Origin: Ostreococcus lucimarinus
Taxonomy: Eukaryota
Assembly: GCA_000092065.1 (NCBI GenBank)
Contig: CP000595.1
Reading direction: 5' to 3' (one strand)
DNA length: 64,000 bases
The translations under genes were made by a program, and so were the position numbers. Positions 14,962 through 43,258 of the stretch are shown piece by piece. Within the stretch, counting starts at the first letter, position 1. The number at the start of each line of letters is the position of its first letter. The notes under the pieces were generated by a model that was not told where the DNA came from, did no database searches, and saw only the letters and a program-made list of their open reading frames with translations.

Positions 14962-17802
14962 TTATACGGGCGTACCGCCCCGATCTCGATCTCGATCTCG
15001 ATCTCGATCTCGATCTCGATCCGCGGACTCGCGCGTGAAGCCGTCTCGACCGTTCTCGTTTGGGCAATACTTTGCCACGCCGTCGTCCGAGATGGGCACG
15101 ACAGATTGTTCGCCGGCGTCGTAACTGATCGACGGCGACCACACGAGCTGGATGGTTTCGCCGACGTTCTCGAAGGAGTGAATCCAACCGCACGGCATGA
15201 ATAAAATGTCGCCCGCCTCGACGACGGCGCCGAAGCCGCGCGAACGCGCGATTTTGGGTTGTTTGTCCAAGTCGACGTTGAAGGCGTTCCCCAGATAGAC
15301 GGGATTGTACAACTCTTCACCGCCGACGCGCGCGGAGAGCGGGTAGAGGTTTTCCTCATCGGCGCGATCCCAGACGACGGCGCGTTTCGAGCCTTGAACC
15401 ACTAAAACCATCACGTGAGCCGGTTTGGCGTGATGATGCGCGTGATACGCTCGAACGCCATCGCCACTGGCGAAGAGCATAAACTTTTTGAACTCCGTAG
15501 GTCGCTCGCGAAAGAGTATCTTGGAGATATACGACCAGTCTCCGCGCAATTTCGTTTCGACAGCTGCTTTGACGCGTTCGGCGAGTGCCGGACATTGTTC
15601 AATAATGTGCCACGAGTGTACGCTCGGTGGCCATAAATTATCCGCTGGGTGTAAAAAGTCCACGCCGCGTTTTCTGGCTATTTTGGATTCCCCCATCAAC
15701 TCACTATCGAAAAAATCTCTCAGTGTTTTAATCTTTCCTTTGCCTTCGAGAAAATCCAACGTTTCATTCAGCGTCAAACCTCGTGTCGTTTCGAGACGTT
15801 CGGAAAGATCTCGCAAAAGTTTTTGATGCGTCGTTTTCGTCATAGACTGGAACAATGGCACTATTTTCGACCCCAAGTCGGCGAATGCATCGCCGCATAA
15901 ATCTAAAATGAGCTCTCGCGTCACGACGCTTCGTAGCACAGTTGCAAGGTTAGCGTTTTCGATCACCACTGGTTGCCCTTCCTTGACGTATTTCCGCTCG
16001 AACGCGTCAATTGATAGTGTAGATGCGTCAACGCGCTCGATGTTGTTCCACTGAAAACTCGGATCGCTCGACGACAGCAGCAGCGGTATATCATCATGTT
16101 GCGGCGCCTCGACCGTCGGCGCGCGTTTGTTTCGTTGATGATCCTCAACTCTTTCGCCACGACCGAGGTTGGCTTGATCATCTTGAATTCGAACTAAAGA
16201 CTCTAGGAAAGACGTAACACTTTGGGCATCGTTCGGTCCGATGAAACTCTGTGCGATCGCATTCAACTCCTTATGATTTCGCACATACGGCCCAAAGTGT
16301 GACGTTTTCATCTCGCGTCTGGCTTTTAGTGACTCTTCCACGGGCCACGGACAATTTAATGGATCGCAACACGGCGCATTAATGTCATACTGACTTTCTG
16401 CTTGAAGCAAAGTAGTCTTAAGCGCACCCTCAAAGCCGTAACGATTCAATAAAGTCGCGCGATCTTTCAGAAAGGCGACATCTTCTTCGGCGATGCTGTA
16501 CTTTTCCATCAACTCCTCTATTGTTGCGTCAGTGACTTCCGCCAAAAACGCGCTAAACGTGGAAGGAAACGTGCGGTGAATGGCACCCCCCTCCACCCAA
16601 CATCTGTAATCTAAGATAGCTCCGATAGTCGGTGACCAGTTTCCGTTTTCAAGCTCCACGATGCACGCCGGTTTAGTTTCGTTGGCAGACTTTGCGTGGC
16701 ACCTTTCCATCCACGGCAAAGTTTTTTCTTTCTCATAGATCACATAACCTGCAACATAGTGCCAGTGATGGCGCGTCCCGGGAATGCTCACTGTGCTGGT
16801 TTCGTCCTCACGTTTCAACATGTCCTCGTTGTCTATCAGCATCAACGACCCTTTGGCTTCGTCGATGAAGATGTTGAATATATTTCTGTCGTGGTTACCA
16901 AGGAGGAAGTCCATCAGAGTCATCCCTATGACGTCCTCTCGCTTAAGTCGCGATACAACGAGAAAAAGTTCTTTCGTCATCATGTTCTGGCCTGGTCTGG
17001 CACCATTGATATCAGTTGGCGCGATTCCCTTTGCCCAGTCTGTGACGAGAACGTGAGTGTTTTGCTTTCCACCAAGAGAACGTGTGTCGCGTGGCGTGAA
17101 AAACTTCAAAGTCTTTGCCTCCGTAGGCGACACAAGTCGCCCGAACCCCATTGTTTCGATCAATCGATGGATGGCTGATATCCTTTCCGGGGATCGATCA
17201 CGCTGACTGTGGAAACCGCCACACGTTTCGTCAACCGGCGTCGCGTTTGCGTGTTGACGAAATTGTCCACGAATACCGCACCAAGCCTTGACGCTCACCT
17301 TTTTCCCTTCGCTCGTAACTCCTCGCAACACCATTGCCTCAGATTTGCCGACATACCTCCCTGGATTTCCCGCGTCGATGCGCTCAACTTTGACGTCGCA
17401 GTCGCAGCGCTCGCACCACCCACGCGAGTCGACGACGTCGTCTTCGCCCAGCTCGGAATGAGGCACGCATGTGGAGCAAGACGAACACGTCTCAAAGCTC
17501 GCGCGTGTACGCTTGTGATTTGTGTCTGCCCCGCGTTCATCGTCACTATCTTTCCGCACGTCGGCGTCGGCGTAATCAGCGTCAGCGACACCATCGGCGA
17601 GTTTCAGCGCTCTAACAGCAATCGTCTCGCGACGCGGCGACGTCCTCGTGAGTGCGACGGTGAGCACGCACACGAACGCGATAGAATAACACGGTGGTTT
17701 CCACCGCGCGGGCCTTCGACGCCTCTTCGTGGCGTGATGCCACATCGGAGGCGCGGAGTGACGTCGGGACGGCGACAAGCGAGAAGGCGTCGTAGAACGC
17801 AT
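14962..17802 (-). CDS. Type-II membrane protein with a FAM20/Four-jointed-like secretory-pathway kinase domain fused to a C-terminal JmjC (cupin) domain and an (RD)n tail
   Basis: N-terminal signal anchor PCYSIAFVCVLTVALT. Fam20-like catalytic motifs: MDFLLGNHDRN (compare FDFLIGNMDRHH) and LMLIDNEDM (DN metal motif). JmjC signatures: HAKPAHVMVLVVQGSKRAVVW and GDILFMPCGWIHSFENV. The track start 17844 is TTG; ATGs are at 17802 and 17745. Confidence 0.55.
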   Translation of the reverse strand: MRSTTPSRLSPSRRHSAPPMWHHATKRRRRPARWKPPCYSIAFVCVLTVALTRTSPRRETIAVRALKLADGVADADYADADVRKDSDDERGADTNHKRTRASFETCSSCSTCVPHSELGEDDVVDSRGWCERCDCDVKVERIDAGNPGRYVGKSEAMVLRGVTSEGKKVSVKAWCGIRGQFRQHANATPVDETCGGFHSQRDRSPERISAIHRLIETMGFGRLVSPTEAKTLKFFTPRDTRSLGGKQNTHVLVTDWAKGIAPTDINGARPGQNMMTKELFLVVSRLKREDVIGMTLMDFLLGNHDRNIFNIFIDEAKGSLMLIDNEDMLKREDETSTVSIPGTRHHWHYVAGYVIYEKEKTLPWMERCHAKSANETKPACIVELENGNWSPTIGAILDYRCWVEGGAIHRTFPSTFSAFLAEVTDATIEELMEKYSIAEEDVAFLKDRATLLNRYGFEGALKTTLLQAESQYDINAPCCDPLNCPWPVEESLKARREMKTSHFGPYVRNHKELNAIAQSFIGPNDAQSVTSFLESLVRIQDDQANLGRGERVEDHQRNKRAPTVEAPQHDDIPLLLSSSDPSFQWNNIERVDASTLSIDAFERKYVKEGQPVVIENANLATVLRSVVTRELILDLCGDAFADLGSKIVPLFQSMTKTTHQKLLRDLSERLETTRGLTLNETLDFLEGKGKIKTLRDFFDSELMGESKIARKRGVDFLHPADNLWPPSVHSWHIIEQCPALAERVKAAVETKLRGDWSYISKILFRERPTEFKKFMLFASGDGVRAYHAHHHAKPAHVMVLVVQGSKRAVVWDRADEENLYPLSARVGGEELYNPVYLGNAFNVDLDKQPKIARSRGFGAVVEAGDILFMPCGWIHSFENVGETIQLVWSPSISYDAGEQSVVPISDDGVAKYCPNENGRDGFTRESADRDRDRDRDRDRDRGGTPV
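14981..15022. repeat. (CGATCT)7 microsatellite encoding the C-terminal RDRDRDRDRDRDR tail of the kinase/JmjC protein
   Basis: cgatctcgatctcgatctcgatctcgatctcgatctcgat. Confidence 0.9.
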
Positions 17803-17879: not shown

Positions 17880-20800
17880 CTATTTTGGGGATTCCCGCGA
17901 GTTCGTGGAGTGCGCGGTGAGATGGCGCTCGTCCAAGGCGATTAAACGTTCGCCGCGTCGGTGTGTTCGAGCTTTCCAGCGCTCACGTAAATCTTGCAAC
18001 TGTGAGCTCAAAGCGCCGTGTTGCTGGCGAATAGTAATCGTAGAGTCAGCCTTGATCGTTTCAAGTAAATCGTCGTCGGCGAAAGGAAGACGTTGACCAG
18101 TCATGCTTCGAAGTTGGATGCGTTCGCTTTCCTTTGCCATTTTCTCTTGATGAATGATCTCTTCGTCTCTCTTGGCGTCGAATTCGTCGACAATCGCCTC
18201 TTCAAATTCCAAGTCGCGAATAGCGCGCTTGATGAGGCCTTCTTCGCCCTCTTCGCGGAACTGGCGAACCAACGTTCGGGCAAAATCATACCATGCCCAT
18301 GCGTGCAGGATGAACAACAAGGCCGTGATGAGATCGACAAAAGTCGAGCCTTGTCCACCTTGTTCGCCTGATTGTTTGAAAATCAGTCCGCCGGTGAATG
18401 TTGCCATAGTAGCAAGTAAGCCATGTGTCTCGATCTTTGCGTACTTTTCGCCGGCATACGGTTTTGCGACGATGTGGAATACAAAGAAAAGTTGCAACAT
18501 ACAATTCACCGTGTATCCACCAATGACTGCACTTCGTCTAGATACGATCACTATGAAGATCAGGATGAATTTTCTCGCGAATATGACCCATTCCCACCAC
18601 CACGCGGACTTGACATTGATTCCCTTGAAGAGCAAACCGAGACGATATTGCACCATTGCTGAATCGTGCTCGCCGACAATGTCTTCTCCGCGAGCGAGCT
18701 GCAGCAAACCGTATGGAATACCGACGATATACAGTATAGCCCAAACGATGACCATAAACAAGTAAAGTGAGTAGGCGGTGCCCCGGCATTGGACCGAATA
18801 GTCGGATACAAAGTGTCGATCGCTGTCGCCAGACGTACCAGTGCACTGCGTGAACTCAGCCAAATATTGAACAAGGGTGGGATAGAGAAGCCACAGAGTC
18901 GCGACGAGCCATGATATTACTATGTCGTAAGCTCTGATGTTTCGCACTTCTTCAAGACCGACATCGTGCTTGTTCACTTTATTCGTGTTACCACTATCGA
19001 TGGCGTTTGTTTCTTCATCTTCAGCAGAATCATTTGCCTTTGTCTTCTTCGTGGCTTCCACTCTAGCTTGGGCCGTTGCCTCTCTCAACTCTTCGACGTA
19101 CTTGATAACCGTGAAGATGATGAACAAGAATATCATCAAGCCTAGTGGGAGCAACTCGTGAAACAGTAGATTTCCGTAAAACTTCCAGCCAATGGCGCAC
19201 TTTGCTGACGCCGACCGTATGTCAGGTAACGAAAGCTTCTCGGCGATAAGTAAGAATGCTTTCATCGAATCCGGCCATGCGAGGTCTAAATTTTTCGCCA
19301 ACGCTGTCATTTGTAAATAGGTGACAAACGATTTTATCATGCCGACGACTTGTGAACTTCGGCGTTGATTGACAACCCGAATGAGCCACACCAGCAACAA
19401 TATCCAGAGAAAGTTGACGACGACGATCGGAAAGTTGAGCACTCGATATGCTCCTGCCGAACAATCGTAACATTTTGGTGGATATGCTTCTCGAATGGCG
19501 TGGTACGCATAACCATTCGCACAAGCTGCGCACATAGCACCAGTGTACCCTGCATCAAGACATGTGCTGTTTACGCCGCCTAGGCACGCGTCAGGGTACG
19601 GACACGCGCGAAATTTCAGCGTTTGTCGGTCAAATCTACTGAAACCAGGAAGCGCTTCGACATTTTCGAGCTCATCACCGTAACATTTTGCACCTTTCGG
19701 GCATGCCATACATTTGTAATCATCGAGTGGGAGTTGTCGATAATAGCTCTCGAATGGGACACTCGTTTGAGAGATGCAGTGGCAGGAACTCTTGCTCACG
19801 TGACCAAGGGCGCCTAAAAGTTGCACTCCTGACTGTGCTTGATATGTTTGCCTCAATCTGCCGTCAACTCGCGAAGTATCCATGGAGATTGGGCACGACG
19901 TGCATGCTCCGTCACCGTGCGCCACTTTGTAGAAGCCATTCTTGCACGGCACACACATGCCATACGGGTGAAGAGCATCGAGCCATCGAGATGACCCAGA
20001 TGTAGCTGTCTTATATAGAGTTATATTCGTTTCGACATAAATGGTATCGATATCTTCAGTATATCCCGTGCCTCCACTAATGTCGGCGGTGAAGCCAGGA
20101 ATGCACTCGCACACGCCAGAGCGAAGCACGCTGTTCGGTTTGACTGTTGAGCAATTCATGACCGTCGTTGGAGTTGAAGGTACGATACTCACATTCAACG
20201 TTGAAGCCGAAAAATTCAGCTCATAGGCATTCGCGCGCTCACCGATGATTGTGATTGAATCGAATTTCGCCAAGCCGTTCACCATCGCCGCCTCTGTCCC
20301 TGAAATGCTCGCCACAGCGGGCGATACACTGACCGTAAGCGTCGTATTGATATCGACGCACACGTTTCCTACAGAATCGATCGCCGCGATGACTGGTGCA
20401 GGCGAAAGTGCGAAGTCATTTTCGTTTATGAAGGGAGGTGCCGTGACGACGGCCAACGCTGTCGGCGCGCCAGGGACTACGGTGAACTCCAACATGTCAG
20501 TCTCCAGCACAGGATAGAGCGCACCAGGACATCGACTTGAGCCACATGATGAAGCGAATCGCAAGCGATAGGTCCCAGCTAATGCATTTTGAATATGCAG
20601 ACCGACATTATAGTGTGTGTCGGGCGCAATACCACTATACCCAGCCTCCCTGCAATATGATGGTGCGGGGTTGGTGTACACCACTCTGTACGTGTAAGCA
20701 CCAGTCGTGGGATTACTGGAGACCACAGTCCTCGGGCTAGAGTCAAGTGAATCTTTGCACCATCCCACTCCACCATTTACTGCGAGAAGAGATCCATCCC

Positions 20801-23800
20801 ATTCGGCTTGCAAGGTTGGTAGCACACTTGCCCGTGGTTGATCCTCCGCTGGCACGAAAGAAAATAGCTCAACCGTGATGTTACGCGCTTCGGTGTCCCA
20901 CATCGAGCCCACATGATAACCGCCAGGATCAGTCATTTGCACGACAAAGTCACGAAGATCCAGGGTTTGCGCTGCGATATATTGTGCAGGATCCCGACAC
21001 AAACCTCGGTCGACACGTGTGAACGAGTTACCGGTGCACGTGTCAAGCGCCGCTGGGTACCCAGCGCTGTAAGTCAGTTGTGTGGAGACCGAATCGAGAC
21101 CCGCTGTAGAAAACGTCAATGAGTACGTTCCGGTGCACGGTCGATAGAATACGATATCATCAAACACCGCTGTGCCCGCAACGATAGTCTGAGGTGTGTA
21201 TGATACATTCGTCTCAAAGTTGCAAGCGCTCACGACCACGCGCTCCGCCTTTACAGAAACTTCGTAATTTAGGTTGAGCGCATTCAAGCCTGCATCGACC
21301 ACACGAATCTGAATCATACTCAATTTTACTTTTTTTGCCGTGGAATACGCAGTCTGCAACGCGATTGCTGCACCGCTGGCAGGTGACGTGAAAGTCTGAA
21401 CAATTAATCCACCATTAATATTTTGCATGAAAAAGAAAAAATAAGTAAGCCTTACCGGTGAGATGAAAAGCGCACTTGCAGTGCCAATCGTAATCGTAAA
21501 TGTACGAGTCGCGGGCGCAACGCTGAGCCCTAACGCGGTACAATTGTCGCAGTTGAAAGAAATCACATAATCCCCGATCTGTAATTAATTGTGTGTGAGG
21601 ATGAAAGTTCTAATGAAATCTGTCATCAATGGGAGCGTACCTCTGGGGCATTGATCACTGTGTCACGAAGTAGTGTACTGTCGGTTCCCGCCGCTATGAC
21701 GCCATTTCTCCCGCTCGTCGCAAACGTATGCCTACATTTTGAATAAAATTAATTAATTCCGGTTATGAATTAATTAGAATCGAAACGTACCTTTGACCCA
21801 CGATACTGGCGATAATACTGTACTCGTGAGTGTTAAGCGACCCGAAACGATTACCTGCGTCATCTGCGATCGCAATTTCGAAAGGGCCGAGGGTTGTTGA
21901 TGCCGTCGCCGGGTATGATCCTTGTGGTGAATTTGCCACGACCAGTTTAGCTGGATCTCCTAACGCCACTGTTACCGCATAAGTCGCAACGGCCTTGCCG
22001 TTGAGATAAAATACGATATCGTGCTGCTGCGCAGTCGGCGCGAGCAGCACGAGGTTCTTAAACTCAACGACGCCGGGTGTGCCGCCCTGTGTATTTAAAT
22101 AAGTTAATTAATTGTTCTCCGTGAAATAAATAATTCATCGCGTTCGAGCATAGTTGACTCACCTGAGTTGCACACGTCGTAGTGCTACCACACGATATCG
22201 CAAAAGTTTCCCCTCCTATCAAGGGATTAATTCCCTGTGGATAAGCCGCCAATTCGGCGGTTTGGCAGACAACAAATATTTGTGCCCCGGTCGGCGAAGC
22301 CGAAATAAAATTCCCTCCGCCATCGTAAAGTCGCCCAACTAGAGGACTAGAAGCGTTCGCAATCGATGTTTCTAGCTTAGATTTGAATGTTCCACTACCT
22401 TGTGTTTCGTCGAGGATCAATTGTGCCGCATTTCCCAAAGTCACGGAAAAGTAGTACTGTGCACCCAGCAGACCCGGCGAGTGGATGTCGACGGCGTACG
22501 TACCGATGTACGGCTTGGCGATGTGTAGTCCATCAAAATAGCTTCCACCAGACTCAGTGTTGGCTTCAAAAGTCGCCACTGATGTACATGATACTCCATG
22601 CAGTGTCGACGATGTACTGGCAAGCCCAGCACATTCGCATGCGTTGCCTTCACCAGTTCTTCTGCACAAGGTGACATTTTGCGGCGATAAGTGCACACGT
22701 CTGCTAGGACATGTCTCGCAAGCTTTCGTTTCAAGATCATCGACGGGATTGAAAGCTCCGTCGAGAATAGTCACCACGACTGGGTACATTGCAACGTCCG
22801 ACGCGGCGCGATATTGATGACAAGTGCAGTTGACATTAGTTTGGCACGCTCCGTCGACTGTGGCGCAGTACGGCAGTAAGCCGAGGTGATTGGATCGCCC
22901 TGCCGTGATCTCTAAATCCACGCTTGCAGACCTCAAACTCGAATCGGACGACACGAAAGTCAAATTGTACGTTCCTTTCTGCGGCTTGACGAGATGCAAA
23001 CCTGAGAACGTCGCAGTCCCAGCGCTCGAAGTGGTTTCCACAAGAGAGCCGGTCCTCGGGTACAGTGAAGTATCTGTGTATACAGTAAGTACCGACGTTC
23101 TTGCGATTGTTGTCGCATTTGCACCGAGTATGAACGGATGAATTTCGACGTTTGTGTCATTCATCATCGCCGTCAACGTAACTCCGTTCGGCAAAGTCCC
23201 CGTCGGCGACTCATTTCCCGCCCCATCCACCGGTACGACGACGAAGTCATCCAGAGGCACAGAGTGCCCGGCTGAGTATGCTGTTGCCTCGGATAGTTGG
23301 ATGCTTTCAGTGAATGATGGTGAAAATTCTAAGACTTTGGGGCTGGTGACCTTGAATCCGCTCACGGCTCCAATCAAAACGCTCACCGTGAGAACTGTAC
23401 TTTGTAGCTTTCCCACGCGCAACTCGCCACTCACTTCAGCGCCAGTCTCAATGACATTAAGGGTGTGCGTACCGACTTTCGGTGAATTTGCAATCAAACC
23501 CGTGAAAGAAACTTGACCGTTGCCATTCGTGAACATCGCAGTCGTTCCAGAAAGTTTCAAAGTTTCGCAAGTCACTTGAATGGTACGATTTGGCGCTACT
23601 GCATCCGTGGTTGAGTGACGATCCGCGGTTCCCATTGAATTGCCGAGCATATCTTGAACGTATACCGTGAACGAACCCAATCCTACAGATTGATCAGCTG
23701 TTACCGATGATAATATCGATTGACTCGAAGCTAGTTCATATCCAGCATCTCCAGCTAGCACATTCACCACTTGGAGAACGGGTGTTAAATCGCCAGACGA

Positions 23801-31819: not shown

Positions 31820-31875
31820 GTCCGAACGTCCGAACGTCCGAACGTCCGAACGTCCGAACGTCCGAACGTCCGAAC
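31820..31875. repeat. (GTCCGAAC)7 perfect 8-mer array (plus one degenerate copy) in the LRR/TPR divergent intergenic region
   Basis: cgtccgaacgtccgaacgtccgaacgtccgaacgtccgaacgtccgaacgtccgaacgtcgacg. Confidence 0.9.
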
Positions 31876-31925
31876 GTCCGAACGTCGACGCGCGCGCGTC
31901 CGAACGTCGACGCGCGCGCGGCGCG

Positions 31926-32043
31926 ATGCGGGCGCGACGGGCGGCGACGGCGGCGACGACGCGATCGAGGGCGAGACGAGACGAGGACGGACGACGCCTC
32001 GAACGGGCGTCGCGCGTCGCGACGACGACGACGACGACGACGA

Positions 32044-32085
<42 letters not shown>

Positions 32086-36314: not shown

Positions 36315-36339
36315 TTTATAACAAACAACAACGACATTA

Positions 36340-37107: not shown

Positions 37108-37115
37108 CGCGTCCC

Positions 37116-37161
37116 GACGACGATGTCCCGCGCGACGACGATGTCCCGCGCGACGTCCCGG
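37116..37161. repeat. 18-bp unit gacgacgatgtcccgcgc x2.5 in the 6PGL/Cpn10 divergent region
   Basis: gacgacgatgtcccgcgcgacgacgatgtcccgcgcgacgtcccgg. Confidence 0.7.
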
Positions 37162-37365
37162 TCGTCGCTCGAGCGGTCGACGCCGCGCCGCGATCGTCGC
37201 GCGCGAGTCCGACGCCCGCGCGCGTCGCATCGGATCGATCGCGCGCGAACCACCGCGTCGCGCGGTGCGCGCGTCGTCGCTCGCACGGCGCGCATCCATC
37301 GGTCGATGCGATTCGATTCGACGCGACGCGCGCGCGCGCCGCACTCGACGACGCGACGACGGCGG

Positions 37366-37996
37366 ATGGCGACTCGACGCGCGCTCCGACCGCTCATGGA
37401 CCGCGTGCTGGTGGAGCGCATCGCGCCCGCGACGAAATCCGTGGGGGGGGTGCTGCTGCCGGAGAGCATGACGGGGAACACGGTGCGTCGACGACGAGGA
37501 CGAAGGCTCGCGAAGGATGGTCGGCGGCGACGCATGCGCGCACGCATGAATGAATGAATGAATGAATGAATGAATGCGCGCGCGCGCGCGGACATCGACG
37601 ACGGTGGCGGACGAAAAAACAAAGGATGAAAGACTGACGCGGAGAATCGCGCGATGACGACGCGGACGCAGATGAACGAGGCGAAAGTGATCGCCGCGGG
37701 ACCGGGACGAAGAACGATGAGCGGCGAGCTCGTGCCGTTGGGTGCGAGACGCGACGCGCGCGCGCGATGAAACGCGAAACGGACGCGAAACGGGACGAAC
37801 AGACGACGGTGACGACGATGACGACGACGATGACTGACGAAGGAATCGATGACGGTTCGGACGAGGCGCAGAGATTAAGGTCGGGGACGTCGTCGCGCTT
37901 CCGGAATTCGGCGGCGCCGCGGTGAACGCGGGCGACGGCTCGGGGAAGGAGTACTTTATCTATCGCGAAGAAGAGATCGTGGGCGTCGTGGAGTGA
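37366..37996 (+). CDS. HSP10: Chaperonin 10 (GroES/HSP10), 3 exons: join(37366..37482, 37672..37741, 37872..37996), 103 aa
   Basis: Exon 1 is MATRRALRPLMDRVLVERIAPATKSVGGVLLPESMTGNT. Exon 2 is MNEAKVIAAGPGRRTMSGELVPL(E). Exon 3 is IKVGDVVALPEFGGAAVNAGDGSGKEYFIYREEEIVGVVE*. These match Cpn10 consensus (L.PL.DRVLV.R...E..T.GG..LP; AVGPGRR; VKVGD.V.....G.E; EY.I..E.DI..V.E). Donors are gtgcgt and gtgcga; acceptors are acgcag and gcgcag. Exon frames were checked against the antisense track ORF 37394-38074. Confidence 0.7.
37546..37576. repeat. (TGAA)/(AATG) x8 microsatellite inside Cpn10 intron 1
   Basis: atgaatgaatgaatgaatgaatgaatgaatg. Confidence 0.9.
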
Positions 37997-38323
37997 GCGC
38001 ACCGCGCGTGACGCGAATTTAGCATCGATCGACGCGCGCGACGCGTCGTTTAATCCGACATTACGGGCATTCATTCAAAGTCGACGCGCGCGCCTCGCCC
38101 CGGCGGGTTTCGACGCGAGCGACAATCGACGTCGCACAACGCGACTCGCGGGTCGACCGCGCGCGCGATCGCGCGTGATCGCGCGACGGATTCGTTTACA
38201 CGTCACGTCGCGCGCGCGCGAAGCGCACGCGCTCGTACGCGCCGCGAACGCGCGAACGGTGTCGATTCGATTTGAACTCTCGACGCGACGGGATTTTGAC
38301 TTTGAAACGCGCCGACGCGCGCG

Positions 38324-41300
38324 ATGACGCGCGAGGAGCGAGGATCGTCGGCGAAGAAGAAGCGTCGAACGTCAACGTCGAGCGCGAAGGGCGAGAGCGG
38401 GGCGACGCTCGACGGACAACGCGAGGCGCGCGCGCTCGGGCCGTGGTCGACGACGGCGCGCGCGCGAGAGGAACGCGCGCGCGCGCGCGCGCACGCGAGC
38501 GCGAGCGCGAGTGGGAAACGAACGAGGGAGGAGGAGGAAAAGGGATCGTTTCGTGGATTATTCGTGGATTGTCGGACGGTGGACGATGACGCGGCGTTCG
38601 AGGCGTGGGAACGGGAGATGCGGGCGGTGGGCGAGGCGCTGCGCGAGTGCCCGTGTACCGAGAAAGACTGGGAGAGCGTGGGGGCGATGGAGAGTGCGCA
38701 AGGCGAAGGCGAAAGTGATGCGTGGGAAAGCGAGAAGATTTGGCTTCATAAGATGTCACGCATCGCGTTCTACGACTCGCAACCGCTGAGCGAGACGAAC
38801 GCGTGGCCGTTCGCTTCGAGAACGAAGAAGGACGCTACAAAGTCGACGGTGGCGCTCTTCAAGGCGAGCGTCTCGGCTTTCATCGCAGCGAAAAATACGC
38901 AGCGACTTGCGGAAGTGGACTGGAAATTACAAGAAAATAAATTAATCAACAGTTGGAAAGAATTGCTTATGACCCACACGCCTCGTCCGGGAGGCTTGGC
39001 AGACGTGTCGTGCGAGTTCAACGTGCACGTCACAGCGCTCGAGCAAGAGTTGGCGAAGAGACAAAATGAAGGTGATAAATCGGATGAATTTGGACGGCGC
39101 ATCAAACACATCAAAATCATGATACAGGTGTTGCAAAGCATAAAGGCGAGCTTCCAGTACTGCGCCACGGCGCTTTATGACACCGTGTTCGCGCCTCTGA
39201 GAGCTTTTTCTTCGGCGTCCATTACGAGTGAAAATTTCGAATCCGGCGTGGAGTTCGTCTCATGGGCCAGTCGCTCGGTGATGATCGCATCCGAACTGTG
39301 CCAAACGAAAGATTCATATCACGTTCGAATGACGCGATACACCAAACACGAGTTTTTGAATTGGTCACGAAAACTTTTGGACTTCTTCTACCACCACCTA
39401 TCGTCCGTGAGAGGTTCGCACATTGTCGAAACACTCGGGTCAGGTAGTGATTGTGCAGAATTAATGCAGCTCATCAAGTGCTTACCCACCATGCGTCTGA
39501 CGCTACCGTGCAAAGGGACTAGCCGGCGTGCCACCTATCTTTCGGACACAAGATTTTCGGACAAATTTCAACGAAAGCTGACACGATTCGCTCTCACGGT
39601 GATCGGTGCTGCAAAGTCTCAACTTTCGCAGCACACACAAACGCACAAATTAGGCAAATTTCTGTTCCCGGAGTGGATCGAGCATCTCGTCGATACCATC
39701 GAGCACAATAAGAGTTACACAGTGAAAGAGCTAGCCCGGGAGATTCTTCTCTCGTTGGATATTGCCAACTTGCTCGCAACTCGTGTAGAAGTGCTCAGCG
39801 TAAAATCTCTCATAAAATTGTCTGACGATGAATTGTCTGTCGACGACGAATTGTCTGTCGACTACGATGACGACGTAAAAGAGCTCAAAGAGTTGTTATC
39901 ATGGCTTCGCTCAATATTAAGCGTGCATCCATCCAAGTTGAGGAACGTGGCTGACTTGGCGAAGGACTTGATTTCCGTCTTTGGATTCTGTCGCCTCCGA
40001 CGCGAAACACATGGTGACAAAGTTCAAAAAAGTGGGCATGATCATAGTTTAGAGTCGGACATATGCAGTATCTTTGCGTGCCTCGCCGTCAGTCGCGATC
40101 ACGACCTTGACGATGAAGAGAAGCTCAAATCTTGTCCGTGTGAGATGGTCAAGTTGAGATCTGAAGACGCGAGAAAAATGATTCAGCAATTGGTGATGCA
40201 TGAAGATCATCTCGACGATGTCGAGGCGGTGATTTTGAATATGCTAACGCTGGATCGAACGAGCATGTCAGCGAGCGATACAACCATCCCTTCCGCTTTG
40301 GCCGCGCTGACTATGTTGGTCCGAAAAAATTGTGTCCTCAGGGAGCGATTTTTCAAATCGGGCGACACCACCAACACGTTGTTGGAGATTCTTGAGTGCA
40401 AGAATGCGAACGTAGCGCGCATCACCAGCGCTTGCATTCTGTCATTCGAAGAGCATCATCGGCTCGTGACTAGTTTGTACAAACCGAACGTGATCACCGA
40501 TAAAAAAGGCGAGCAAGTGACTGAAATATCTGGTTGGGACGTTGACACGATTCGTCAGTCGCTCAGAGCCATCTCTGCGCTCGTCAAAGACTCTACCGTG
40601 TCTTCAATCGGTTTCGATAGCGCCATTTTGGAAGTCATCTGCACTGATAGGCGAATGCTTGTTCTTACGAACAAGATCAAGGCGACGATAGAAAAGAAGA
40701 TTAACAAGAGTATGGATTATCCCAACTCCCGGCTCTGCTTCCCAGAAGCTCTGCTTGAAGAATGGGTGTTCGATCTACTCTGCATGAGAAGCGATCTTCT
40801 CACTCAAATGGCCACTGCGGTCACAAACGGCGGCGGTGACCCGTGGAAAAACTTCAAGCCTAAACATGAAGAGTTCGCGAGTTTCATCAGTCGTGAGTTT
40901 GAAGTCGCGAACACCGACGCGACGATACCACCGGAGGCGCACGCAGAATGGTTTCAAGAGGTCGTGACATTGGTGACAACTGTGCAAGAAAAACTCAAGA
41001 AAGACGAGGAAATCTCCGACGTCTGCAGTATTTTGATGGATGGAGACACCGATGGTCCATCTTCCCGTGTTGGTATCGTAGTCCCCATCTTAACTCTGTT
41101 ACACAAATGTCGCATCTTGCAGGAGCACAATTTGATTTCCGAGCTAGAAGTCGAGGGCATCAGCGATATTGAAAAAGAAGCGTGTTACGTCATCGGCTTA
41201 TTAGCGAGTAAGCAAGGAATTCAAGATCGTATCGCAAGCTCTTTCCTTATCGAAGGCAAGAACGGAATCGAGCAATTAATTCCGCTCTTGCAACGATACC

Positions 41301-43258
41301 AACCCAGTGCGAAAAACGCCGCGAATGCCAGTGTTGCGAGACGCGCATCGGATGCAATCACAAACTTAGCACACGAGAACAGTCGCATTAAAACGATGGT
41401 TCGAAATGCGAATGGCATCCCTCCTCTGGTCAATCTATTGGAATCGCAAGAGAAAAAAGTCCAGAAGGCTGCCGCTAGTGCGCTCAGAACTCTGGCTTTC
41501 AAAAATGGTGAAAATAAAAACCAAATTGTCGAGTGTGGCGCACTTCCGAAGCTCATTTTCATGGCTCGTTCAGAGGACGTAATGATTCACAAAGAAGCAA
41601 TTGGTGTGATTGGAAACTTGGTTCACTCTTCGCCGCACATCAAACGACGCGCCCTCGACGAAGGAGCGCTGCAACCCGTGATTGAATTGCTCAAGTCTCA
41701 GTGTTCCGAAACGCAGCGTGAGGCGGCGTTATTGCTTGGTCAGTTTGCCGCGCGCCTTGAGCCTGCAGCGCCGGGTGATCCAGACTATCGGACAAAAATA
41801 GTCCAGCGTGGAGCTGTAGAGCCGTTGATTAAAATGCTCGGCGGTCAATTTGTCTATCGTGAACCTGGTCTTCGAGAGATGGCAGCCTTTGCCCTCGGTC
41901 GACTTGCGCAACACGGGGATAATCAAGTCGGAATCTGCCATTCGGATGGATTACGGCCGTTGTTGACGTTACTCGAATCAGAGATAGAAGATATCGCCGA
42001 AGGACTTCGTCATCATAGCGCTTCCGGGAAGTCTGATCACGAGATCGATCTAGACGCCAAGCGCTTTGCTGAAAATTTGCAGCACAACGCTGCGTTTGCA
42101 CTCTATGGCCTAGCCGCGCATCAAGACAACGTGCCAAAGATGCTCAAAGAGAACGCCTTCATGCGGTTGAAATTTTCTCATCTCATCGCCGAACAGAGCA
42201 AACAATGTGTGAATAAAACGTTAAAGCGGCTCGAGGACGGAGTCAGCCGCAGAGATGTCTTGACTTATCTCGGTTTCGTCATAAGCACTGGCAAGCCAGT
42301 CGAACGTCAAAGAGTAACGCTCGCTCTGGCTTGGCTAATCAGGAAAGAAAACCAAGACTATCTGAAAGACATGCGCGCGGTTTTCATAGACAAAGGTGGT
42401 CTTGACGTCCTTTCTGGCGCTTTACTTGATACGCCGGCGGAGCCCATAGACTTTTCTGGGCATACGAGTGGTCTCGCCGGTGGCAAACGCATTGTAAACG
42501 TGATAATGGAGGCTCTGAGAGAGATTAAGGACAAGCTGGTGTCACAGGTTGTGGTGGAATCTCACATGATGCCGCCACCCTCGACGCCAACGGCCGAGGA
42601 GCATATGCCAGCGAACTTCAATGACCCCGAGCTTTCAGACGTGACGTTTATTGCTCGGGATGATGAAGGTGAAAAGCGAGAGTTCAATGCGCATAGAATC
42701 GCTTTTACGCACGCCTCTGATGCGTTCTTATCAACGCTCGAAGCGGGTAAAGCTGATGTCGACGTTTATCCCGCCACATACAAGGTTGACCTCGAAGACG
42801 TTTGTTGGAACGTGCTTGAGGCGATGATGGATTTCATTTACACGGGCACTGTCGGACCGATGTCCAGCCTCCGAGACCAGGCGTTTCTCCAGCATAGATG
42901 CGAGGACGTACTCTCCGCCACGACACGCTTCGACCTTCCCGGGCTCAAGTATTTGACCGAAAAACTTTTCATCGATAACGTGAAAATGGATACTTTCACA
43001 TTCGCGAGAACGTGTGCATTGTATCGCGCCGCCGTGGAGCACGACGCCGTGGCGATCCAGGACCACGTGCTGGGCTATGTTCTCGACAACTACGACAAAC
43101 CTTGGATTGACGACGATGTCACGATGAATTGTCTCACTTCATACAAAGCGCGCGTGAAAGACATCGTCGAATGCTTCGGGAAAGGCTTGGTGAAATACCT
43201 TGACAAACTGTTGCGCCGAGAGCGCGTCGCCGTCGTCGCGGACGCGCAAGACGAATGA
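38324..43258 (+). CDS. Large Armadillo-repeat plus BTB/POZ protein (ARIA/ABAP1-like architecture) with a long N-terminal helical region
   Basis: ARM repeats, for example ITNLAHENSRIKTMVRNANGIPPLVNLLES, AAASALRTLAFKNGENKNQIVECGALPKLIFMARSED and IGVIGNLVHSSPHIKRRALDEGALQPVIELL. A C-terminal BTB is present: ELSDVTFIARDDEGEKREFNAHRIAFTHASDAFLSTLEAG...DVCWNVLEAMMDFIYTG. ATG at 38324. The gene is AT-richer than its neighbours. Confidence 0.65.
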   Translation: MTREERGSSAKKKRRTSTSSAKGESGATLDGQREARALGPWSTTARAREERARARAHASASASGKRTREEEEKGSFRGLFVDCRTVDDDAAFEAWEREMRAVGEALRECPCTEKDWESVGAMESAQGEGESDAWESEKIWLHKMSRIAFYDSQPLSETNAWPFASRTKKDATKSTVALFKASVSAFIAAKNTQRLAEVDWKLQENKLINSWKELLMTHTPRPGGLADVSCEFNVHVTALEQELAKRQNEGDKSDEFGRRIKHIKIMIQVLQSIKASFQYCATALYDTVFAPLRAFSSASITSENFESGVEFVSWASRSVMIASELCQTKDSYHVRMTRYTKHEFLNWSRKLLDFFYHHLSSVRGSHIVETLGSGSDCAELMQLIKCLPTMRLTLPCKGTSRRATYLSDTRFSDKFQRKLTRFALTVIGAAKSQLSQHTQTHKLGKFLFPEWIEHLVDTIEHNKSYTVKELAREILLSLDIANLLATRVEVLSVKSLIKLSDDELSVDDELSVDYDDDVKELKELLSWLRSILSVHPSKLRNVADLAKDLISVFGFCRLRRETHGDKVQKSGHDHSLESDICSIFACLAVSRDHDLDDEEKLKSCPCEMVKLRSEDARKMIQQLVMHEDHLDDVEAVILNMLTLDRTSMSASDTTIPSALAALTMLVRKNCVLRERFFKSGDTTNTLLEILECKNANVARITSACILSFEEHHRLVTSLYKPNVITDKKGEQVTEISGWDVDTIRQSLRAISALVKDSTVSSIGFDSAILEVICTDRRMLVLTNKIKATIEKKINKSMDYPNSRLCFPEALLEEWVFDLLCMRSDLLTQMATAVTNGGGDPWKNFKPKHEEFASFISREFEVANTDATIPPEAHAEWFQEVVTLVTTVQEKLKKDEEISDVCSILMDGDTDGPSSRVGIVVPILTLLHKCRILQEHNLISELEVEGISDIEKEACYVIGLLASKQGIQDRIASSFLIEGKNGIEQLIPLLQRYQPSAKNAANASVARRASDAITNLAHENSRIKTMVRNANGIPPLVNLLESQEKKVQKAAASALRTLAFKNGENKNQIVECGALPKLIFMARSEDVMIHKEAIGVIGNLVHSSPHIKRRALDEGALQPVIELLKSQCSETQREAALLLGQFAARLEPAAPGDPDYRTKIVQRGAVEPLIKMLGGQFVYREPGLREMAAFALGRLAQHGDNQVGICHSDGLRPLLTLLESEIEDIAEGLRHHSASGKSDHEIDLDAKRFAENLQHNAAFALYGLAAHQDNVPKMLKENAFMRLKFSHLIAEQSKQCVNKTLKRLEDGVSRRDVLTYLGFVISTGKPVERQRVTLALAWLIRKENQDYLKDMRAVFIDKGGLDVLSGALLDTPAEPIDFSGHTSGLAGGKRIVNVIMEALREIKDKLVSQVVVESHMMPPPSTPTAEEHMPANFNDPELSDVTFIARDDEGEKREFNAHRIAFTHASDAFLSTLEAGKADVDVYPATYKVDLEDVCWNVLEAMMDFIYTGTVGPMSSLRDQAFLQHRCEDVLSATTRFDLPGLKYLTEKLFIDNVKMDTFTFARTCALYRAAVEHDAVAIQDHVLGYVLDNYDKPWIDDDVTMNCLTSYKARVKDIVECFGKGLVKYLDKLLRRERVAVVADAQDE

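What the first reader, a model, noticed from the sequence alone, without database searches (positions are those of the whole stretch)
14962..43258. Sharp gene-by-gene GC heterogeneity: three large multidomain genes are about 45-52% GC among about 65-75% GC neighbours
The kinase/JmjC gene (14962-17844), the giant receptor gene (17880-27379) and the ARM/BTB gene (38324-43258) are visibly AT-richer in all codon positions (for example 19000-19060 is about 45% GC). By contrast SSIII, PsbQ, the TPR gene and ribosomal-protein genes a few kb away are extremely GC3-rich. Such boundaries coincide with gene boundaries, not with larger isochores. Candidate explanations are expression-linked codon bias (GC-biased gene conversion weaker in lowly expressed or long genes), or a distinct evolutionary origin (horizontal or viral acquisition) for these large genes.
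Basis: seen in the sequence. Interest (0 to 1): 0.5.

Follow-up and report, generated by a model that had tools for sequence, protein, structure and literature searches.

The report
GC falls along genes; long genes AT-richer
In this Ostreococcus lucimarinus stretch, the three large genes are AT-richer mainly because every gene starts CpG/GC-rich at its promoter end and decays along its length, so long genes are mostly low-GC tail; this is an ordinary compositional gradient in native genes, not foreign DNA.

Summary
The window is an ordinary chromosome of Ostreococcus lucimarinus CCE9901. The three genes have GC 0.51-0.53 and GC3 0.52-0.59, below all 23 other scorable genes (GC3 0.595-0.81). 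Neighbours average about 0.60 GC, not 65-75%. The transitions lie inside genes, not at gene borders.

Every gene falls from GC3 about 0.80 in the first 50 codons to about 0.60 after 400. The focal genes do the same (0.74 to about 0.50-0.53). Spacers follow the same rule: divergent 0.71, tandem 0.57, convergent 0.46.

About 90% of the GC variance tracks CpG density. Outside CpG dinucleotides the focal genes are 0.403 GC against 0.425 for the rest. Position in the gene explains 37-57% of the GC3 deficits. The remainder is a gene-level offset of 1-2 SD.

A foreign origin is not supported. The giant and ARM/BTB genes have syntenic orthologues in other Ostreococcus lineages, the giant is low-GC3 in all of them, no viral relatives were found, and the dinucleotide signature is host-like. 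The kinase/JmjC gene has changed position within the genus.

The likely mechanism is inferred, not shown. It is a promoter-centred CpG/GC-favouring fixation bias, plus faster CpG loss in methylated gene bodies.

The parts
14962..17844 (-). Kinase-like/JmjC (Cupin_8) gene, about 946 aa from the first ATG (17802). GC 0.532, GC3 0.580. GC3 per 100 codons runs 0.63, 0.63, 0.53 ... 0.49, 0.56, 0.77.
   Evidence: Pfam gives Cupin_8 at 2e-11 and PI3_PI4_kinase at 24.5 bits, below the cutoff. An 88% orthologue sits at the same position in L009. A 67% orthologue sits in another context in L008. The gene is absent from this position in L005 and L007.
17880..27379 (-). Giant membrane-protein gene of about 3,100 aa. 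It encodes an N-terminal EGF-like/TIG-type beta-sandwich region, Cys-rich Ephrin_rec_like modules and a multi-pass transmembrane C-terminus. GC 0.506, GC3 0.516. GC3 is 0.73 in the first 100 codons and 0.37-0.61 afterwards.
   Evidence: Translations are, Pfam. Orthologues at 57-62% identity are syntenic in L005, L006 and L007. They have GC3 0.46-0.56 there. The C-terminal family has 1970 hits, including 3,000-6,000-aa proteins.
21455..22162 (-). Cluster of at least four short (about 60-90 nt) AT-rich GT...AG introns that join the two long ORFs of the giant gene.
   Evidence: Read from the sequence and three-frame translation. The same ORF split, 1787 aa + about 95 aa + about 1229 aa, is called in all related contigs.
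38324..43258 (+). ARM-repeat/BTB gene, 1644 aa. GC 0.513, GC3 0.587. GC3 is 0.78 and 0.75 in the first 200 codons, reaches a minimum of 0.44 near codon 1050, and is 0.70 in the last bin.
   Evidence: Pfam gives Arm at 1.9e-28 and BTB at 9e-10. A 53% orthologue is syntenic in L003, in the order 6PGL-Cpn10-ARM/BTB-S16-S21e-XPG-Brix.
27921..28835 (-). Short (304 aa) gene of unknown function just upstream of the giant gene. It has low, flat GC3 (0.58, 0.58, 0.63) and no 5' peak. Its residual is the most negative in the window (-0.141).
   Evidence: Its orthologues are also low: GC3 0.52 in L005 and 0.56 in L007, with NCG/NCN 0.29-0.31.
29014..31620 (-). LRR gene (868 aa), an example of the gradient in a non-focal gene. 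GC3 falls from 0.84 to 0.58-0.66, and total GC from 0.75 at the 5' end to 0.49 near the 3' end.
1681..5922 (-). Starch synthase III-like gene (1413 aa), a long non-focal gene with the same gradient. GC3 is 0.77 and 0.91, dips to 0.39-0.41, then stays at 0.55-0.63. Overall GC3 is 0.607.
31200..32400 (.). GC/CpG peak (0.70-0.75 GC) over the divergent LRR/TPR promoter and both 5' coding ends. It is rich in CpG-containing simple repeats such as (CGTCCGAA)11, (CGA)21 and (CGGCGACGA)16.
36900..38700 (.). GC/CpG peak (0.62-0.74 GC) over the divergent promoter region upstream of ARM/BTB and over its first 125 or so codons.
12684..12723 (.). Convergent 3'-3' spacer (GT25/zf-DNL), an example of the GC troughs at gene 3' ends. 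It is 0.28 GC. Pooled convergent spacers are 0.46 GC.

Best explanation
The low GC of the three genes is the long-gene end of a promoter-centred CpG/GC gradient that runs through every gene of this Ostreococcus lucimarinus region.

Shown here:
- CpG density, and with it GC, is highest over promoters and the first few hundred codons. It declines roughly with the logarithm of distance from the start codon, to a baseline of GC3 about 0.5-0.6.
- Genes of 2.8-9.5 kb are mostly baseline, so their averages are low.
- A smaller gene-level offset sits on top. It is strongest for the giant gene and its small upstream neighbour, and it is conserved across species.

Inferred mechanism:
- A DNA-level fixation or repair bias favours CpG (and G/C generally). 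GC-biased gene conversion, acting most strongly on T:G mismatches in CpG context, is the most plausible form. It would start in nucleosome-free intergenic and promoter DNA and fade with conversion-tract distance.
- Faster CpG-to-TpG/CpA loss in Dnmt5-methylated gene bodies, compared with the hypomethylated start-codon zone, adds to it.
- Expression-linked selection on G/C-ending codons probably contributes to the gene-level offsets.
For: Organism: exact matches to O. lucimarinus CCE9901 proteins ABO99891.1/XP_001421598.1.

Gradient:
- In the 23 non-focal genes, GC3 falls from 0.796 (codons 0-50) to about 0.60 (beyond 400). The focal genes fall from 0.74 to 0.50-0.53.
- The logistic slope on log distance from the ATG is -0.40, with gene-bootstrap CI -0.52 to -0.27, in non-focal genes alone.
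- The gradient reappears in related species: slope -0.38 in L007, -0.36 in L008 and -0.17 in L003.
- Position predicts GC3 of 0.65, 0.62 and 0.63 for kinase/JmjC, giant and ARM/BTB, against 0.58, 0.516 and 0.587 observed. That is 37-57% of the deficit. The residuals are 0.9-2.0 times the between-gene SD of 0.054.

DNA-level effect, not codon-level:
- Divergent spacers are 0.71 GC, tandem 0.57 and convergent 0.46. CpG o/e is 1.8-2.05 in all three classes.
- In two-fold Y-ending codons beyond codon 200, P(C3) is 0.72 when the next base is G, against 0.37-0.69 otherwise. Focal and non-focal genes differ only in the next-G class (0.55 vs 0.72).

CpG dominance:
- 27% of all bases lie in CpG dinucleotides, and r(GC, CpG fraction) is 0.95.
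- GC outside CpG is 0.403 (focal) against 0.425 (rest). Shuffles predict 0.438 against 0.515.
- At four-fold sites with no CpG potential, GC3 is nearly flat: 0.61 to 0.56 in non-focal and 0.54 to 0.53 in focal genes. NCG use falls from 0.86 to 0.48 and from 0.70 to 0.40.

Methylation link:
- TpG/CpA o/e mirrors GC (rho -0.90): 1.10 in low-GC kilobases against 0.66 in high-GC ones.
- Against a 93%-identical sister lineage, CpG transitions are about twice as frequent per site in distal gene bodies (0.069-0.082) as in proximal coding or other (spacer and unmodelled) DNA (0.036-0.044). Non-CpG C/G transitions are about 0.022-0.032 in these classes (0.052 in the small focal proximal class).
- In O. 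tauri, 5mCG is about 6% at the ATG and plateaus at 31-33% after 200-300 bp (bioRxiv 10.64898/2026.07.10.737489).

gBGC background:
- Chromosome size against GC gives rho -0.72 in O. lucimarinus (PMC5635611).
- The low GC of the Mamiellales mating-type region is attributed to loss of gBGC (PMC13298755).
- The same length and position effect in yeast is attributed to gene conversion starting at promoters (PMC3096941 and PMC3020949).
Against: - A focal-gene offset remains after distance from the ATG is fitted (logit -0.275, CI -0.45 to -0.13). It disappears only when a distance-to-stop term is added. That term is not significant in non-focal genes alone, so it is confounded with gene identity.
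- The short gene at 27921-28835 is low in GC3 with no 5' peak, so length is not the only factor.
- Plain gBGC predicts a gradient at all G/C-versus-A/T sites. The C/T choice outside CpG context shows none, and at non-CpG four-fold sites G3 falls while C3 rises.
- Methylation-driven decay alone cannot explain why CpG stays over-represented even in the low-GC genes (o/e 1.15-1.45).
- The published methylation step (200-300 bp) is shorter than the compositional decay (about 1.2 kb).
- No recombination, methylation or expression data for O. lucimarinus were available here.
- The population sample had too few SNPs in gene bodies (17) to test fixation bias.
Confidence: 0.7

Rival explanations
1. Expression-linked translational selection is the main cause. 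The three genes are weakly expressed, so they use fewer of the G/C-ending optimal codons, while short, highly expressed neighbours use more.
For: [quoted passage not shown]
- Gene-level residuals exist after position is removed: Mito_carr +0.10, AA_kinase +0.06, giant -0.11, the 304-aa gene -0.14.
- The giant's low GC3 is conserved in three other lineages, as a stable expression level would predict.
Against: - Expression is constant along a transcript, yet GC3 drops by about 0.2 within each gene.
- The C3 preference depends on the first base of the next codon. The focal/non-focal difference is confined to CpG-forming contexts.
- Non-coding spacers show the same promoter-high, terminator-low pattern and the same CpG excess.
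- In O. tauri the partial correlation of codon bias with expression is modest (rho -0.22).
Confidence: 0.17
2. Gene-body CpG methylation alone is the cause. Methylated CpGs in gene bodies decay to TpG/CpA while the unmethylated start-codon zone keeps its CpGs. Long genes are mostly methylated body, so no recombination-linked bias is needed.
For: - TpG/CpA o/e is the mirror image of GC (rho -0.90).
- The CpG transition rate per site is about twice as high in distal bodies as in proximal or spacer DNA.
- The O. tauri methylation profile runs from 6% at the ATG to a 31-33% plateau.
- CpG o/e is lowest in distal gene bodies (1.15-1.45), against 1.8-2.05 in all spacer classes.
Against: - CpG is still over-represented in the low-GC genes, so some force must create the CpG excess.
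- Compositional decay continues to about 400 codons and beyond, much further than the 200-300 bp methylation step.
- G-ending two-fold codons that can never form CpG also decline (0.69 to 0.54).
- Convergent spacers are AT-rich (0.46), although intergenic CG sites are only 12% methylated in O. tauri.
Confidence: 0.1
3. The three genes, or some of them, have a distinct origin: horizontal or viral acquisition, or relocation from the low-GC mating-type/outlier chromosome. On this view they have not yet reached host composition.
For: - The kinase/JmjC gene is not at this position in two other Ostreococcus lineages (L005, L007). Its 67% orthologue lies in a different neighbourhood (L008).
- Its GC3 is lower here (0.58) than in L008 (0.66).
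- The giant gene has the most deviant dinucleotide signature (delta* 171-183, against 69-157 for other genes).
- Gene traffic out of the low-GC mating-type region is reported for Mamiellales (PMC13298755).
Against: - The giant and ARM/BTB genes are syntenic in other Ostreococcus lineages at 51-62% protein identity. Any acquisition therefore predates those splits, and the giant's low GC3 is stable, not ameliorating.
- All three genes have host-type GC/CpG-rich 5' ends and a CpG excess.
- Kinase/JmjC and ARM/BTB fall within the normal spread of dinucleotide signatures.
- In L008 the kinase/JmjC orthologue sits in normal-GC DNA with normal GC3. It did not arrive as low-GC DNA.
- The domain architectures are eukaryotic.
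- The giant gene has spliceosomal-type introns.
- IMG/VR holds no relatives (close relatives only).
Confidence: 0.03

Closest known systems
Intragenic GC3 gradient and negative gene-length/GC3 correlation attributed to promoter-initiated GC-biased gene conversion in yeast (Stoletzki 2011, PMC3096941; Marsolier-Kergoat 2011, PMC3020949); 5'-to-3' GC gradients in plant genes (from my own knowledge)
   Same: GC-ending codons become rarer with distance from the gene start. Long genes therefore have lower GC3. The intergenic or promoter DNA is the high point. Optimal and non-optimal G/C-ending codons are both affected, so the pattern mimics weaker codon bias in long genes.
   Different: Here the gradient is carried mostly by CpG-forming sites, in a genome with extreme CpG excess (o/e 1.2-2.0). 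The C/T choice outside CpG context shows no gradient. A rise towards the 3' end is not independently supported. Recombination data are lacking, and laboratory crosses have not been reported as far as I know.
CG-enrichment regime with Dnmt5 nucleosome-linker CG methylation in Mamiellophyceae (Huff & Zilberman 2014, Cell 156:1286). The paper could not be read here. It is cited via PMC5082852 and PMC5728721; the CG-enrichment claim is from my memory of its abstract.
   Same: The organism group is the same. CpG frequency is extremely high: 13.6% of dinucleotide positions in this window are CpG. Published bisulfite data for O. tauri show gene-body CG methylation with depletion at the TSS.
   Different: What is described here is the unevenness of that enrichment: strong at 5' ends and promoters, weak in distal bodies of long genes. 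I could not check whether that paper already reports this gradient.
Vertebrate-type CpG islands at unmethylated promoters
   Same: CpG-rich, GC-rich zones are centred on promoters and first exons. Downstream lie bodies that are poorer in CpG, richer in TpG/CpA and methylated (methylation shown in O. tauri).
   Different: The 'depleted' gene bodies still have CpG o/e above 1. The islands extend several hundred codons into coding sequence, because spacers are only about 50-500 bp.
Low-GC outlier chromosome regions of Mamiellales (mating-type region / big and small outlier chromosomes)
   Same: GC and CpG are lower than in the rest of the genome. Loss or weakness of gBGC is the proposed cause (PMC13298755).
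   Different: Those are contiguous regions of hundreds of kilobases. Here the low-GC DNA alternates with GC peaks at every gene start, on an ordinary chromosome, and synteny with other species is conserved.

Membership tests
Promoter-centred gBGC gradient (yeast-type intragenic GC3 profile) | GC3 declines with distance from the start codon in genes generally | tested here: met
   The slope is -0.40 on log distance (CI -0.52 to -0.27) in 23 non-focal genes. The gradient is replicated in L003, L007 and L008 and is weak in L005.
Promoter-centred gBGC gradient (yeast-type intragenic GC3 profile) | Non-coding DNA at promoters is the GC maximum | tested here: met
   Divergent spacers are 0.71 GC, tandem 0.57 and convergent 0.46.
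Promoter-centred gBGC gradient (yeast-type intragenic GC3 profile) | All G/C-ending codons are affected, whatever the neighbouring bases | tested here: not met
   The C/T choice shows no gradient when the next base is A, C or T. Four-fold sites without CpG potential go only from 0.61 to 0.56. G-ending two-fold codons do decline, from 0.69 to 0.54.
Promoter-centred gBGC gradient (yeast-type intragenic GC3 profile) | GC3 rises again towards the stop codon (U-shape) | tested here: inconclusive
   The distance-to-stop coefficient is -0.11 to -0.13 with focal genes included. In non-focal genes alone it is -0.05 (CI -0.13 to +0.07).
Promoter-centred gBGC gradient (yeast-type intragenic GC3 profile) | Fixation bias: W-to-S alleles segregate at higher frequency than S-to-W; correlation with local recombination rate | tested here: inconclusive
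   134 SNPs were found among 8 haplotypes, only 17 of them in distal gene bodies. Minor-allele counts do not differ by class. No recombination map was available.
Methylation-dependent CpG decay outside hypomethylated promoter zones (CpG-island logic) | CpG o/e is higher, and TpG/CpA o/e lower, at 5' ends than in gene bodies | tested here: met
   High-GC kilobases have CpG o/e 1.83 and TpG/CpA o/e 0.66. Low-GC kilobases have 1.31 and 1.10. The rho values are +0.82 and -0.90.
Methylation-dependent CpG decay outside hypomethylated promoter zones (CpG-island logic) | CpG transitions are faster per site in bodies than at 5' ends | tested here: met
   The rates are 0.069-0.082 against 0.036-0.044, measured against the 93%-identical lineage L009. 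Non-CpG C/G transitions are about 0.022-0.032 in these classes. The differences are unpolarised, so weaker CpG-preserving fixation would give the same result.
Methylation-dependent CpG decay outside hypomethylated promoter zones (CpG-island logic) | Measured hypomethylation at the TSS/ATG and methylation in gene bodies in this organism | not testable with these tools
   Only literature on the sister species O. tauri was available: 6% at the ATG and a plateau of 31-33%.
Methylation-dependent CpG decay outside hypomethylated promoter zones (CpG-island logic) | CpG is depleted (o/e below 1) in methylated DNA | tested here: not met
   CpG o/e is 1.15-1.45 even in the low-GC genes.
Horizontally or virally acquired gene | Absent from, or not syntenic in, related species | tested here: not met
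   The giant gene is syntenic in L005, L006 and L007, and ARM/BTB in L003. Kinase/JmjC is present in the genus at 67-99% identity, but its position varies.
Horizontally or virally acquired gene | Relatives in viral genomes | tested here: not met
   Three scans of IMG/VR gave no confirmed relatives. The method finds close relatives only. No phylogeny against giant-virus proteomes was run.
Horizontally or virally acquired gene | Oligonucleotide signature foreign to the host | tested here: not met
   The qualitative signature is the same: CG above 1.3, CC/GG about 0.6-0.7, TA 0.4-0.6. Kinase/JmjC and ARM/BTB have delta* 71-81, within the host gene range of 69-157. The giant, at 171-183, is slightly outside that range.
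Translational-selection codon bias | Codon preference is independent of flanking nucleotides and absent from non-coding DNA | tested here: not met
   There is strong dependence on the next base (odds ratio 3.1, p = 4e-33 in non-focal genes). Spacers show the same pattern.
Translational-selection codon bias | Bias scales with expression level | not testable with these tools
   No expression data for O. lucimarinus were available here. The relationship has been shown for O. tauri (PMC3673656).
Mamiellales low-GC outlier / mating-type region | A contiguous low-GC block of hundreds of kilobases with disrupted synteny | tested here: not met
   Low-GC tracts of 4.5-14 kb alternate with peaks of 0.70-0.75 GC. 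Gene order is conserved with other lineages.

The most novel reading that the evidence does not exclude
The extreme CpG excess of Ostreococcus, and most of its local GC variation, may be produced by a conversion or repair bias that is specific to CpG context. T:G mismatches at CpG/TpG heterozygous sites would be resolved to CpG. The bias would be launched from promoter and intergenic DNA and would fade over about 1 kb. Distance from a promoter, and hence gene length, would then be the main determinant of base composition. The giant gene with its flanks would form a conserved low-CpG domain because it is a promoter desert. This would give a concrete, testable cause for the 'CG-enriching regime' of Dnmt5 linker-methylated genomes.
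Probability: 0.2. Interest if true: 0.55.

Novelty: new member of a known kind. Interest (0 to 1): 0.3.

Why it matters
The result removes a tempting false lead. Low-GC large genes in prasinophyte genomes need not be foreign or viral. Composition-based HGT screens in these genomes should correct for gene length and for position within the gene.

It also shows that local GC in this genome is largely a readout of CpG density, with a promoter-centred gradient. This links two separately published features of Mamiellophyceae: evidence for gBGC, and the CG-rich, linker-methylated genome architecture. It suggests a simple genome-wide and population-genetic test of what drives the CpG excess.

Tried and rejected
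- Viral or horizontal origin was rejected. Synteny, signature and intron evidence argue against it, and three IMG/VR scans found nothing. Those scans only reach close relatives.
- Outlier-chromosome or mating-type region was rejected. The window alternates between high and low GC, synteny is conserved, and the proteins map to an ordinary stretch of CCE9901.
- Pure amino-acid composition was rejected as the cause of the GC3 and four-fold-site differences. It does contribute to total GC through GC1. Low GC2 in ARM/BTB (0.397) also contributes.
- A distance-to-stop term absorbs the remaining focal-gene effect. It is not significant in non-focal genes alone, so I do not rely on it.
- Environmental haplotypes L010-L016 gave only 17 SNPs in distal gene bodies. 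That is too few to test fixation bias.
- Polarising the 726 differences to L009 was not possible. The next outgroups (about 60% protein identity) are too distant for synonymous sites.
- Nucleosome-scale CpG periodicity looked significant for the whole window (185-195 bp, z = 6). It comes from one segment only (27.4-38.7 kb, z = 12.5 at 190 bp) and is absent from the focal genes. No tandem repeat explains it. It is left unexplained.
- Huff & Zilberman 2014 (PMC3969382) is not held in the library. Its content is cited second-hand or from memory.
- The search for homologous proteins returned only 2-11 hits per gene, because word-sharing candidates were capped at 8000. I therefore could not establish the wider distribution of the kinase/JmjC and ARM/BTB genes beyond Ostreococcus-like sequences.

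Full report
**What the window is.** Exact protein matches identify the window as Ostreococcus lucimarinus CCE9901. The glycosyltransferase-25 gene at 11310-12680 equals ABO99891.1/XP_001421598.1, and other products fall in clusters that hold CCE9901 proteins. The window has 57.7% GC and no Ns. It is gene-dense. Pfam assigns most long ORFs:
- HAD, CbiX and starch synthase III (1681-5922, minus strand).
- A Rubisco-LSMT-like gene, ResB/CCS1 and zf-DNL.
- The three focal genes.
- An LRR gene (29014-31620, minus), a TPR gene, a CSL zinc-finger gene and 6-phosphogluconolactonase.
- Ribosomal S16 and S21e, XPG/FEN, Brix, AA_kinase, a mitochondrial carrier, DnaJ, SART-1, DUF455 and an HHH_8 polymerase-like gene.

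Gene order is conserved with other Ostreococcus lineages. The GC pattern alternates rather than forming one block. This is therefore ordinary chromosome, not one of the low-GC outlier regions.

**Checking the observation.** The low-GC tracts are real. In 300-nt bins, 15.6-27.0 kb and 38.7-43.5 kb sit at 0.43-0.56 GC, while peaks elsewhere reach 0.70-0.75.

| Gene | GC | GC3 |
|---|---|---|
| kinase/JmjC | 0.532 | 0.580 |
| giant | 0.506 | 0.516 |
| ARM/BTB | 0.513 | 0.587 |

All three GC3 values lie below those of the 23 other genes whose frame I could fix (0.595-0.813). The exact rank probability is 1/2600.

The description is inaccurate in several respects:
- The rest of the window is 0.601 GC, not 65-75%.
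- SSIII has GC3 0.607, close to the focal genes.
- GC2 of the giant gene is not low (0.45-0.51).
- The transitions are not at gene borders. Each focal gene begins GC-rich: 38400-38699 is 0.707, 27300-27599 is 0.687 and 17400-17699 is 0.603.
- The tract 15.6-29.7 kb spans four genes.

**The gradient.** Binning third positions by distance from the start codon shows the same shape in nearly every gene. Examples of the fall in GC3 are RBCMT 0.87 to 0.57, LRR 0.84 to 0.58-0.66, XPG 0.86 to 0.65, GT25 0.83 to 0.56 and SSIII 0.77/0.91 to 0.55-0.63.

Pooled over the 23 non-focal genes, GC3 falls from 0.796 (codons 0-50) to about 0.60 (beyond 400). The focal genes fall from 0.74 to 0.50-0.53. Four-fold-degenerate sites behave the same way, so amino-acid choice is not the cause.

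In non-focal genes alone, the logistic slope on log distance from the ATG is -0.40, with gene-bootstrap CI -0.52 to -0.27. Non-focal genes in related contigs give -0.38 (L007), -0.36 (L008), -0.17 (L003) and -0.09 (L005).

Non-coding DNA obeys the same rule. Pooled divergent (5'-5') spacers are 0.71 GC, tandem spacers 0.57 and convergent (3'-3') spacers 0.46.

**How much of the three genes' deficit does position explain?** I used the position profile of the other genes to predict each focal gene.

| Gene | Predicted GC3 | Observed GC3 | Share of deficit explained | Residual |
|---|---|---|---|---|
| kinase/JmjC | 0.652 | 0.580 | 37% | -0.07 |
| giant | 0.623 | 0.516 | 40% | -0.11 |
| ARM/BTB | 0.634 | 0.587 | 57% | -0.05 |

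The between-gene residual SD is 0.054, so these residuals are 0.9-2.0 SD. Other genes have residuals just as negative: the 304-aa gene at 27921-28835 (-0.14), the gene at 35103-36311 (-0.09) and CbiX (-0.08).

In a joint model the focal indicator drops from -0.63 to -0.275 once distance from the ATG is fitted (CI -0.45 to -0.13). It drops to -0.09 (not significant) when distance to the stop codon is added. That second term is not significant in non-focal genes alone. It is confounded with gene identity, so I treat the residual as a real but modest gene-level offset.

**It is mostly CpG.**
- The window has a very large CpG excess. CpG o/e is 1.15-2.0 in every kilobase, and 13.6% of dinucleotide positions are CpG.
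- Local GC correlates with CpG o/e (rho +0.82) and inversely with TpG/CpA o/e (rho -0.90).
- 27% of all bases lie in CpG dinucleotides. The fraction of bases in CpG explains 90% of the variance of GC among 500-nt bins.
- Outside CpGs the focal genes are 0.403 GC and the rest 0.425. Shuffling within bins predicts 0.438 against 0.515.
- At four-fold sites that cannot form a CpG, GC3 is nearly flat and nearly equal in both gene sets (non-focal 0.61 to 0.56; focal 0.54 to 0.53). In NCN codons, G3 falls from 0.86 to 0.48 in non-focal genes and from 0.70 to 0.40 in focal genes.
- In two-fold pyrimidine-ending codons beyond codon 200, P(C3) is 0.72 (non-focal) against 0.55 (focal) when the next base is G. 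It is the same in both sets when the next base is A (0.69 vs 0.67), C (0.37 vs 0.31) or T (0.48 vs 0.45).
- A non-CpG component does exist. G-ending two-fold codons fall from 0.69 to 0.54, with a focal offset of about 0.06.

The signal depends on the neighbouring codon and also appears in spacers, where CpG o/e is 1.8-2.05 in all classes. It therefore acts on DNA, not through tRNA-level codon choice.

**Origin of the genes.**
- ARM/BTB has 51-53% identical orthologues. One lies in a 33-kb metagenomic contig in the same order as the window: CSL, 6PGL, Cpn10, ARM/BTB, S16, S21e, XPG, Brix, AA_kinase.
- The giant gene has 57-62% identical orthologues. They are flanked as in the window by TPR, LRR and the small unknown gene upstream, and by PsbQ, zf-DNL and GT25 downstream.
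- In those lineages the giant is again the GC3 minimum (0.46-0.56, NCG/NCN 0.25-0.35, against 0.5-0.7 in most neighbours). Its small upstream neighbour is also low. The low GC is thus an old, stable state, not a transient of recent acquisition.
- The giant's C-terminal Cys-rich/multi-TM region belongs to a large family: 1970 hits at E up to 0.001, many of them 2,000-6,000 aa.
- The two long ORFs of the giant gene are joined by at least four short AT-rich GT...AG introns at 21.45-22.16 kb.
- Kinase/JmjC is the exception in position only. An 88% orthologue sits at the same site (L009). The gene is missing from that site in L005 and L007. A 67% orthologue lies among unrelated genes in L008, where its GC3 is 0.66, ordinary for that contig. 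The gene moved within the genus and did not arrive as low-GC DNA.
- No relatives were confirmed in IMG/VR.
- Dinucleotide signatures are qualitatively identical. Kinase/JmjC and ARM/BTB lie within the spread of host genes, and the giant lies slightly outside it.

**Mechanism.** What is shown is a promoter-centred gradient in CpG density, with a weaker gradient in G/C generally, that acts on coding and non-coding DNA alike. What drives it is inferred.

Two published facts fit:
- O. lucimarinus shows the chromosome-size/GC relation expected from GC-biased gene conversion (PMC5635611). The low GC of the non-recombining mating-type region of Mamiellales is attributed to loss of gBGC (PMC13298755). 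In yeast the same position and length effects are explained by conversion tracts that start in promoters (PMC3096941 and PMC3020949).
- In O. tauri, CG methylation is about 6% at the start codon and plateaus at 31-33% after 200-300 bp (bioRxiv 10.64898/2026.07.10.737489).

Two results from this window fit the methylation part:
- TpG/CpA excess marks the low-GC DNA.
- Against a 93%-identical sister lineage, CpG transitions per site are about twice as frequent in distal gene bodies (0.069-0.082) as in proximal coding or other (spacer and unmodelled) DNA (0.036-0.044). Non-CpG C/G transitions are about 0.022-0.032 in these classes (0.052 in the small focal proximal class).

Neither process alone suffices. 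Methylation decay cannot create a CpG excess, and it acts over too short a distance. Context-free gBGC does not predict the CpG specificity.

The combination I favour is a conversion or repair bias that is strongest for T:G mismatches in CpG context, that fades with distance from intergenic initiation sites, and that is opposed by faster CpG loss in methylated bodies. Expression-linked selection on G/C-ending codons (PMC3673656) probably adds to the gene-level offsets.

**Verdict.** The heterogeneity is real and highly non-random. It is a within-gene gradient, so long genes average lower, with a modest gene-specific component on top. It is not a mosaic of native and foreign genes. The kind of phenomenon is known from yeast and plants, and the CpG-rich architecture is known for this algal group. 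The CpG-specific form of the gradient is a local variant worth a genome-wide check, but it is not a surprise.

Noticed in passing
window 14962-17844; L005 19672-21149, L007 19478-20706, L008 5183-7870, L009 3611-6370: The kinase-like/JmjC gene has changed genomic position within Ostreococcus. It lies between the giant gene and PsbQ here and in an 88% relative. It is absent from that spot in two other lineages. Its 67% orthologue lies among Oxysterol_BP, Nucleotid_trans and DUF3593 genes. Its GC3 is 0.58 here against 0.66 in the other context.
   Followed up: partly
window 21455-22162 (minus strand): The giant gene contains a cluster of at least four very short (about 60-90 nt) AT-rich GT...AG introns carrying TTAATTAA-like motifs. 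Gene callers split the gene into three ORFs in every related contig.
   Followed up: partly
window 27400-38700: CpG density shows a sharp 190-bp periodicity (z = 12.5 against local block shuffles) in this segment only. It drives a whole-window signal at 185-195 bp (z = 6). It is absent from the focal genes and weak or absent elsewhere (z 1.0-2.4). No tandem repeat of that period is present. The period is close to the ~180-bp methylation periodicity published for O. tauri, but the cause here is unexplained.
   Followed up: partly
window 14899-41650 compared with L010-L016: Among environmental haplotypes 99.4-99.8% identical to the window, SNP density is very uneven. It is about 2.0% in sequence outside the modelled coding regions (spacers plus unmodelled genes), 0.9% in the first 600 nt of coding sequences and 0.12% in distal gene bodies. 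This could reflect relaxed constraint, mutagenic or recombination hotspots at promoters, or assembly and alignment noise in CpG-rich low-complexity DNA.
   Followed up: no
window 31400-32260, 37100-38510: The GC peaks at divergent promoters and 5' coding ends are packed with CpG-containing simple repeats, such as (CGTCCGAA)11, (CGA)21, (CGGCGACGA)16 and (GC)27. Slippage of CG-containing motifs may contribute to the CpG excess there.
   Followed up: no
all genes; four-fold sites with no CpG potential: Along genes the third position shifts from G to C. At non-CpG four-fold sites, G3 goes from 0.46 to 0.24 and C3 from 0.15 to 0.32. This is a coding-strand G-over-C skew near gene starts that neither plain gBGC nor CpG decay predicts.
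   Followed up: no
window 27921-28835 (minus strand); orthologues L005 8722-9705, L007 8430-9293: A short (304 aa) gene of unknown function next to the giant gene has low, flat GC3 (0.595) with no GC-rich 5' end. The same holds in two other lineages (0.52 and 0.56). Gene length therefore cannot be the only determinant.
   Followed up: partly
window about 14965-15015: An alternating GA/TC-type microsatellite encodes an (Arg-Asp)n tail at the C-terminus of the kinase/JmjC protein. It accounts for the high GC3 (0.77) of that gene's last bin.
   Followed up: no
window about 4120-4720 (SSIII codons 400-600): There is a local GC3 dip to 0.39-0.41 inside starch synthase III, lower than anywhere in ARM/BTB. 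GC3 returns to about 0.6 downstream.
   Followed up: no
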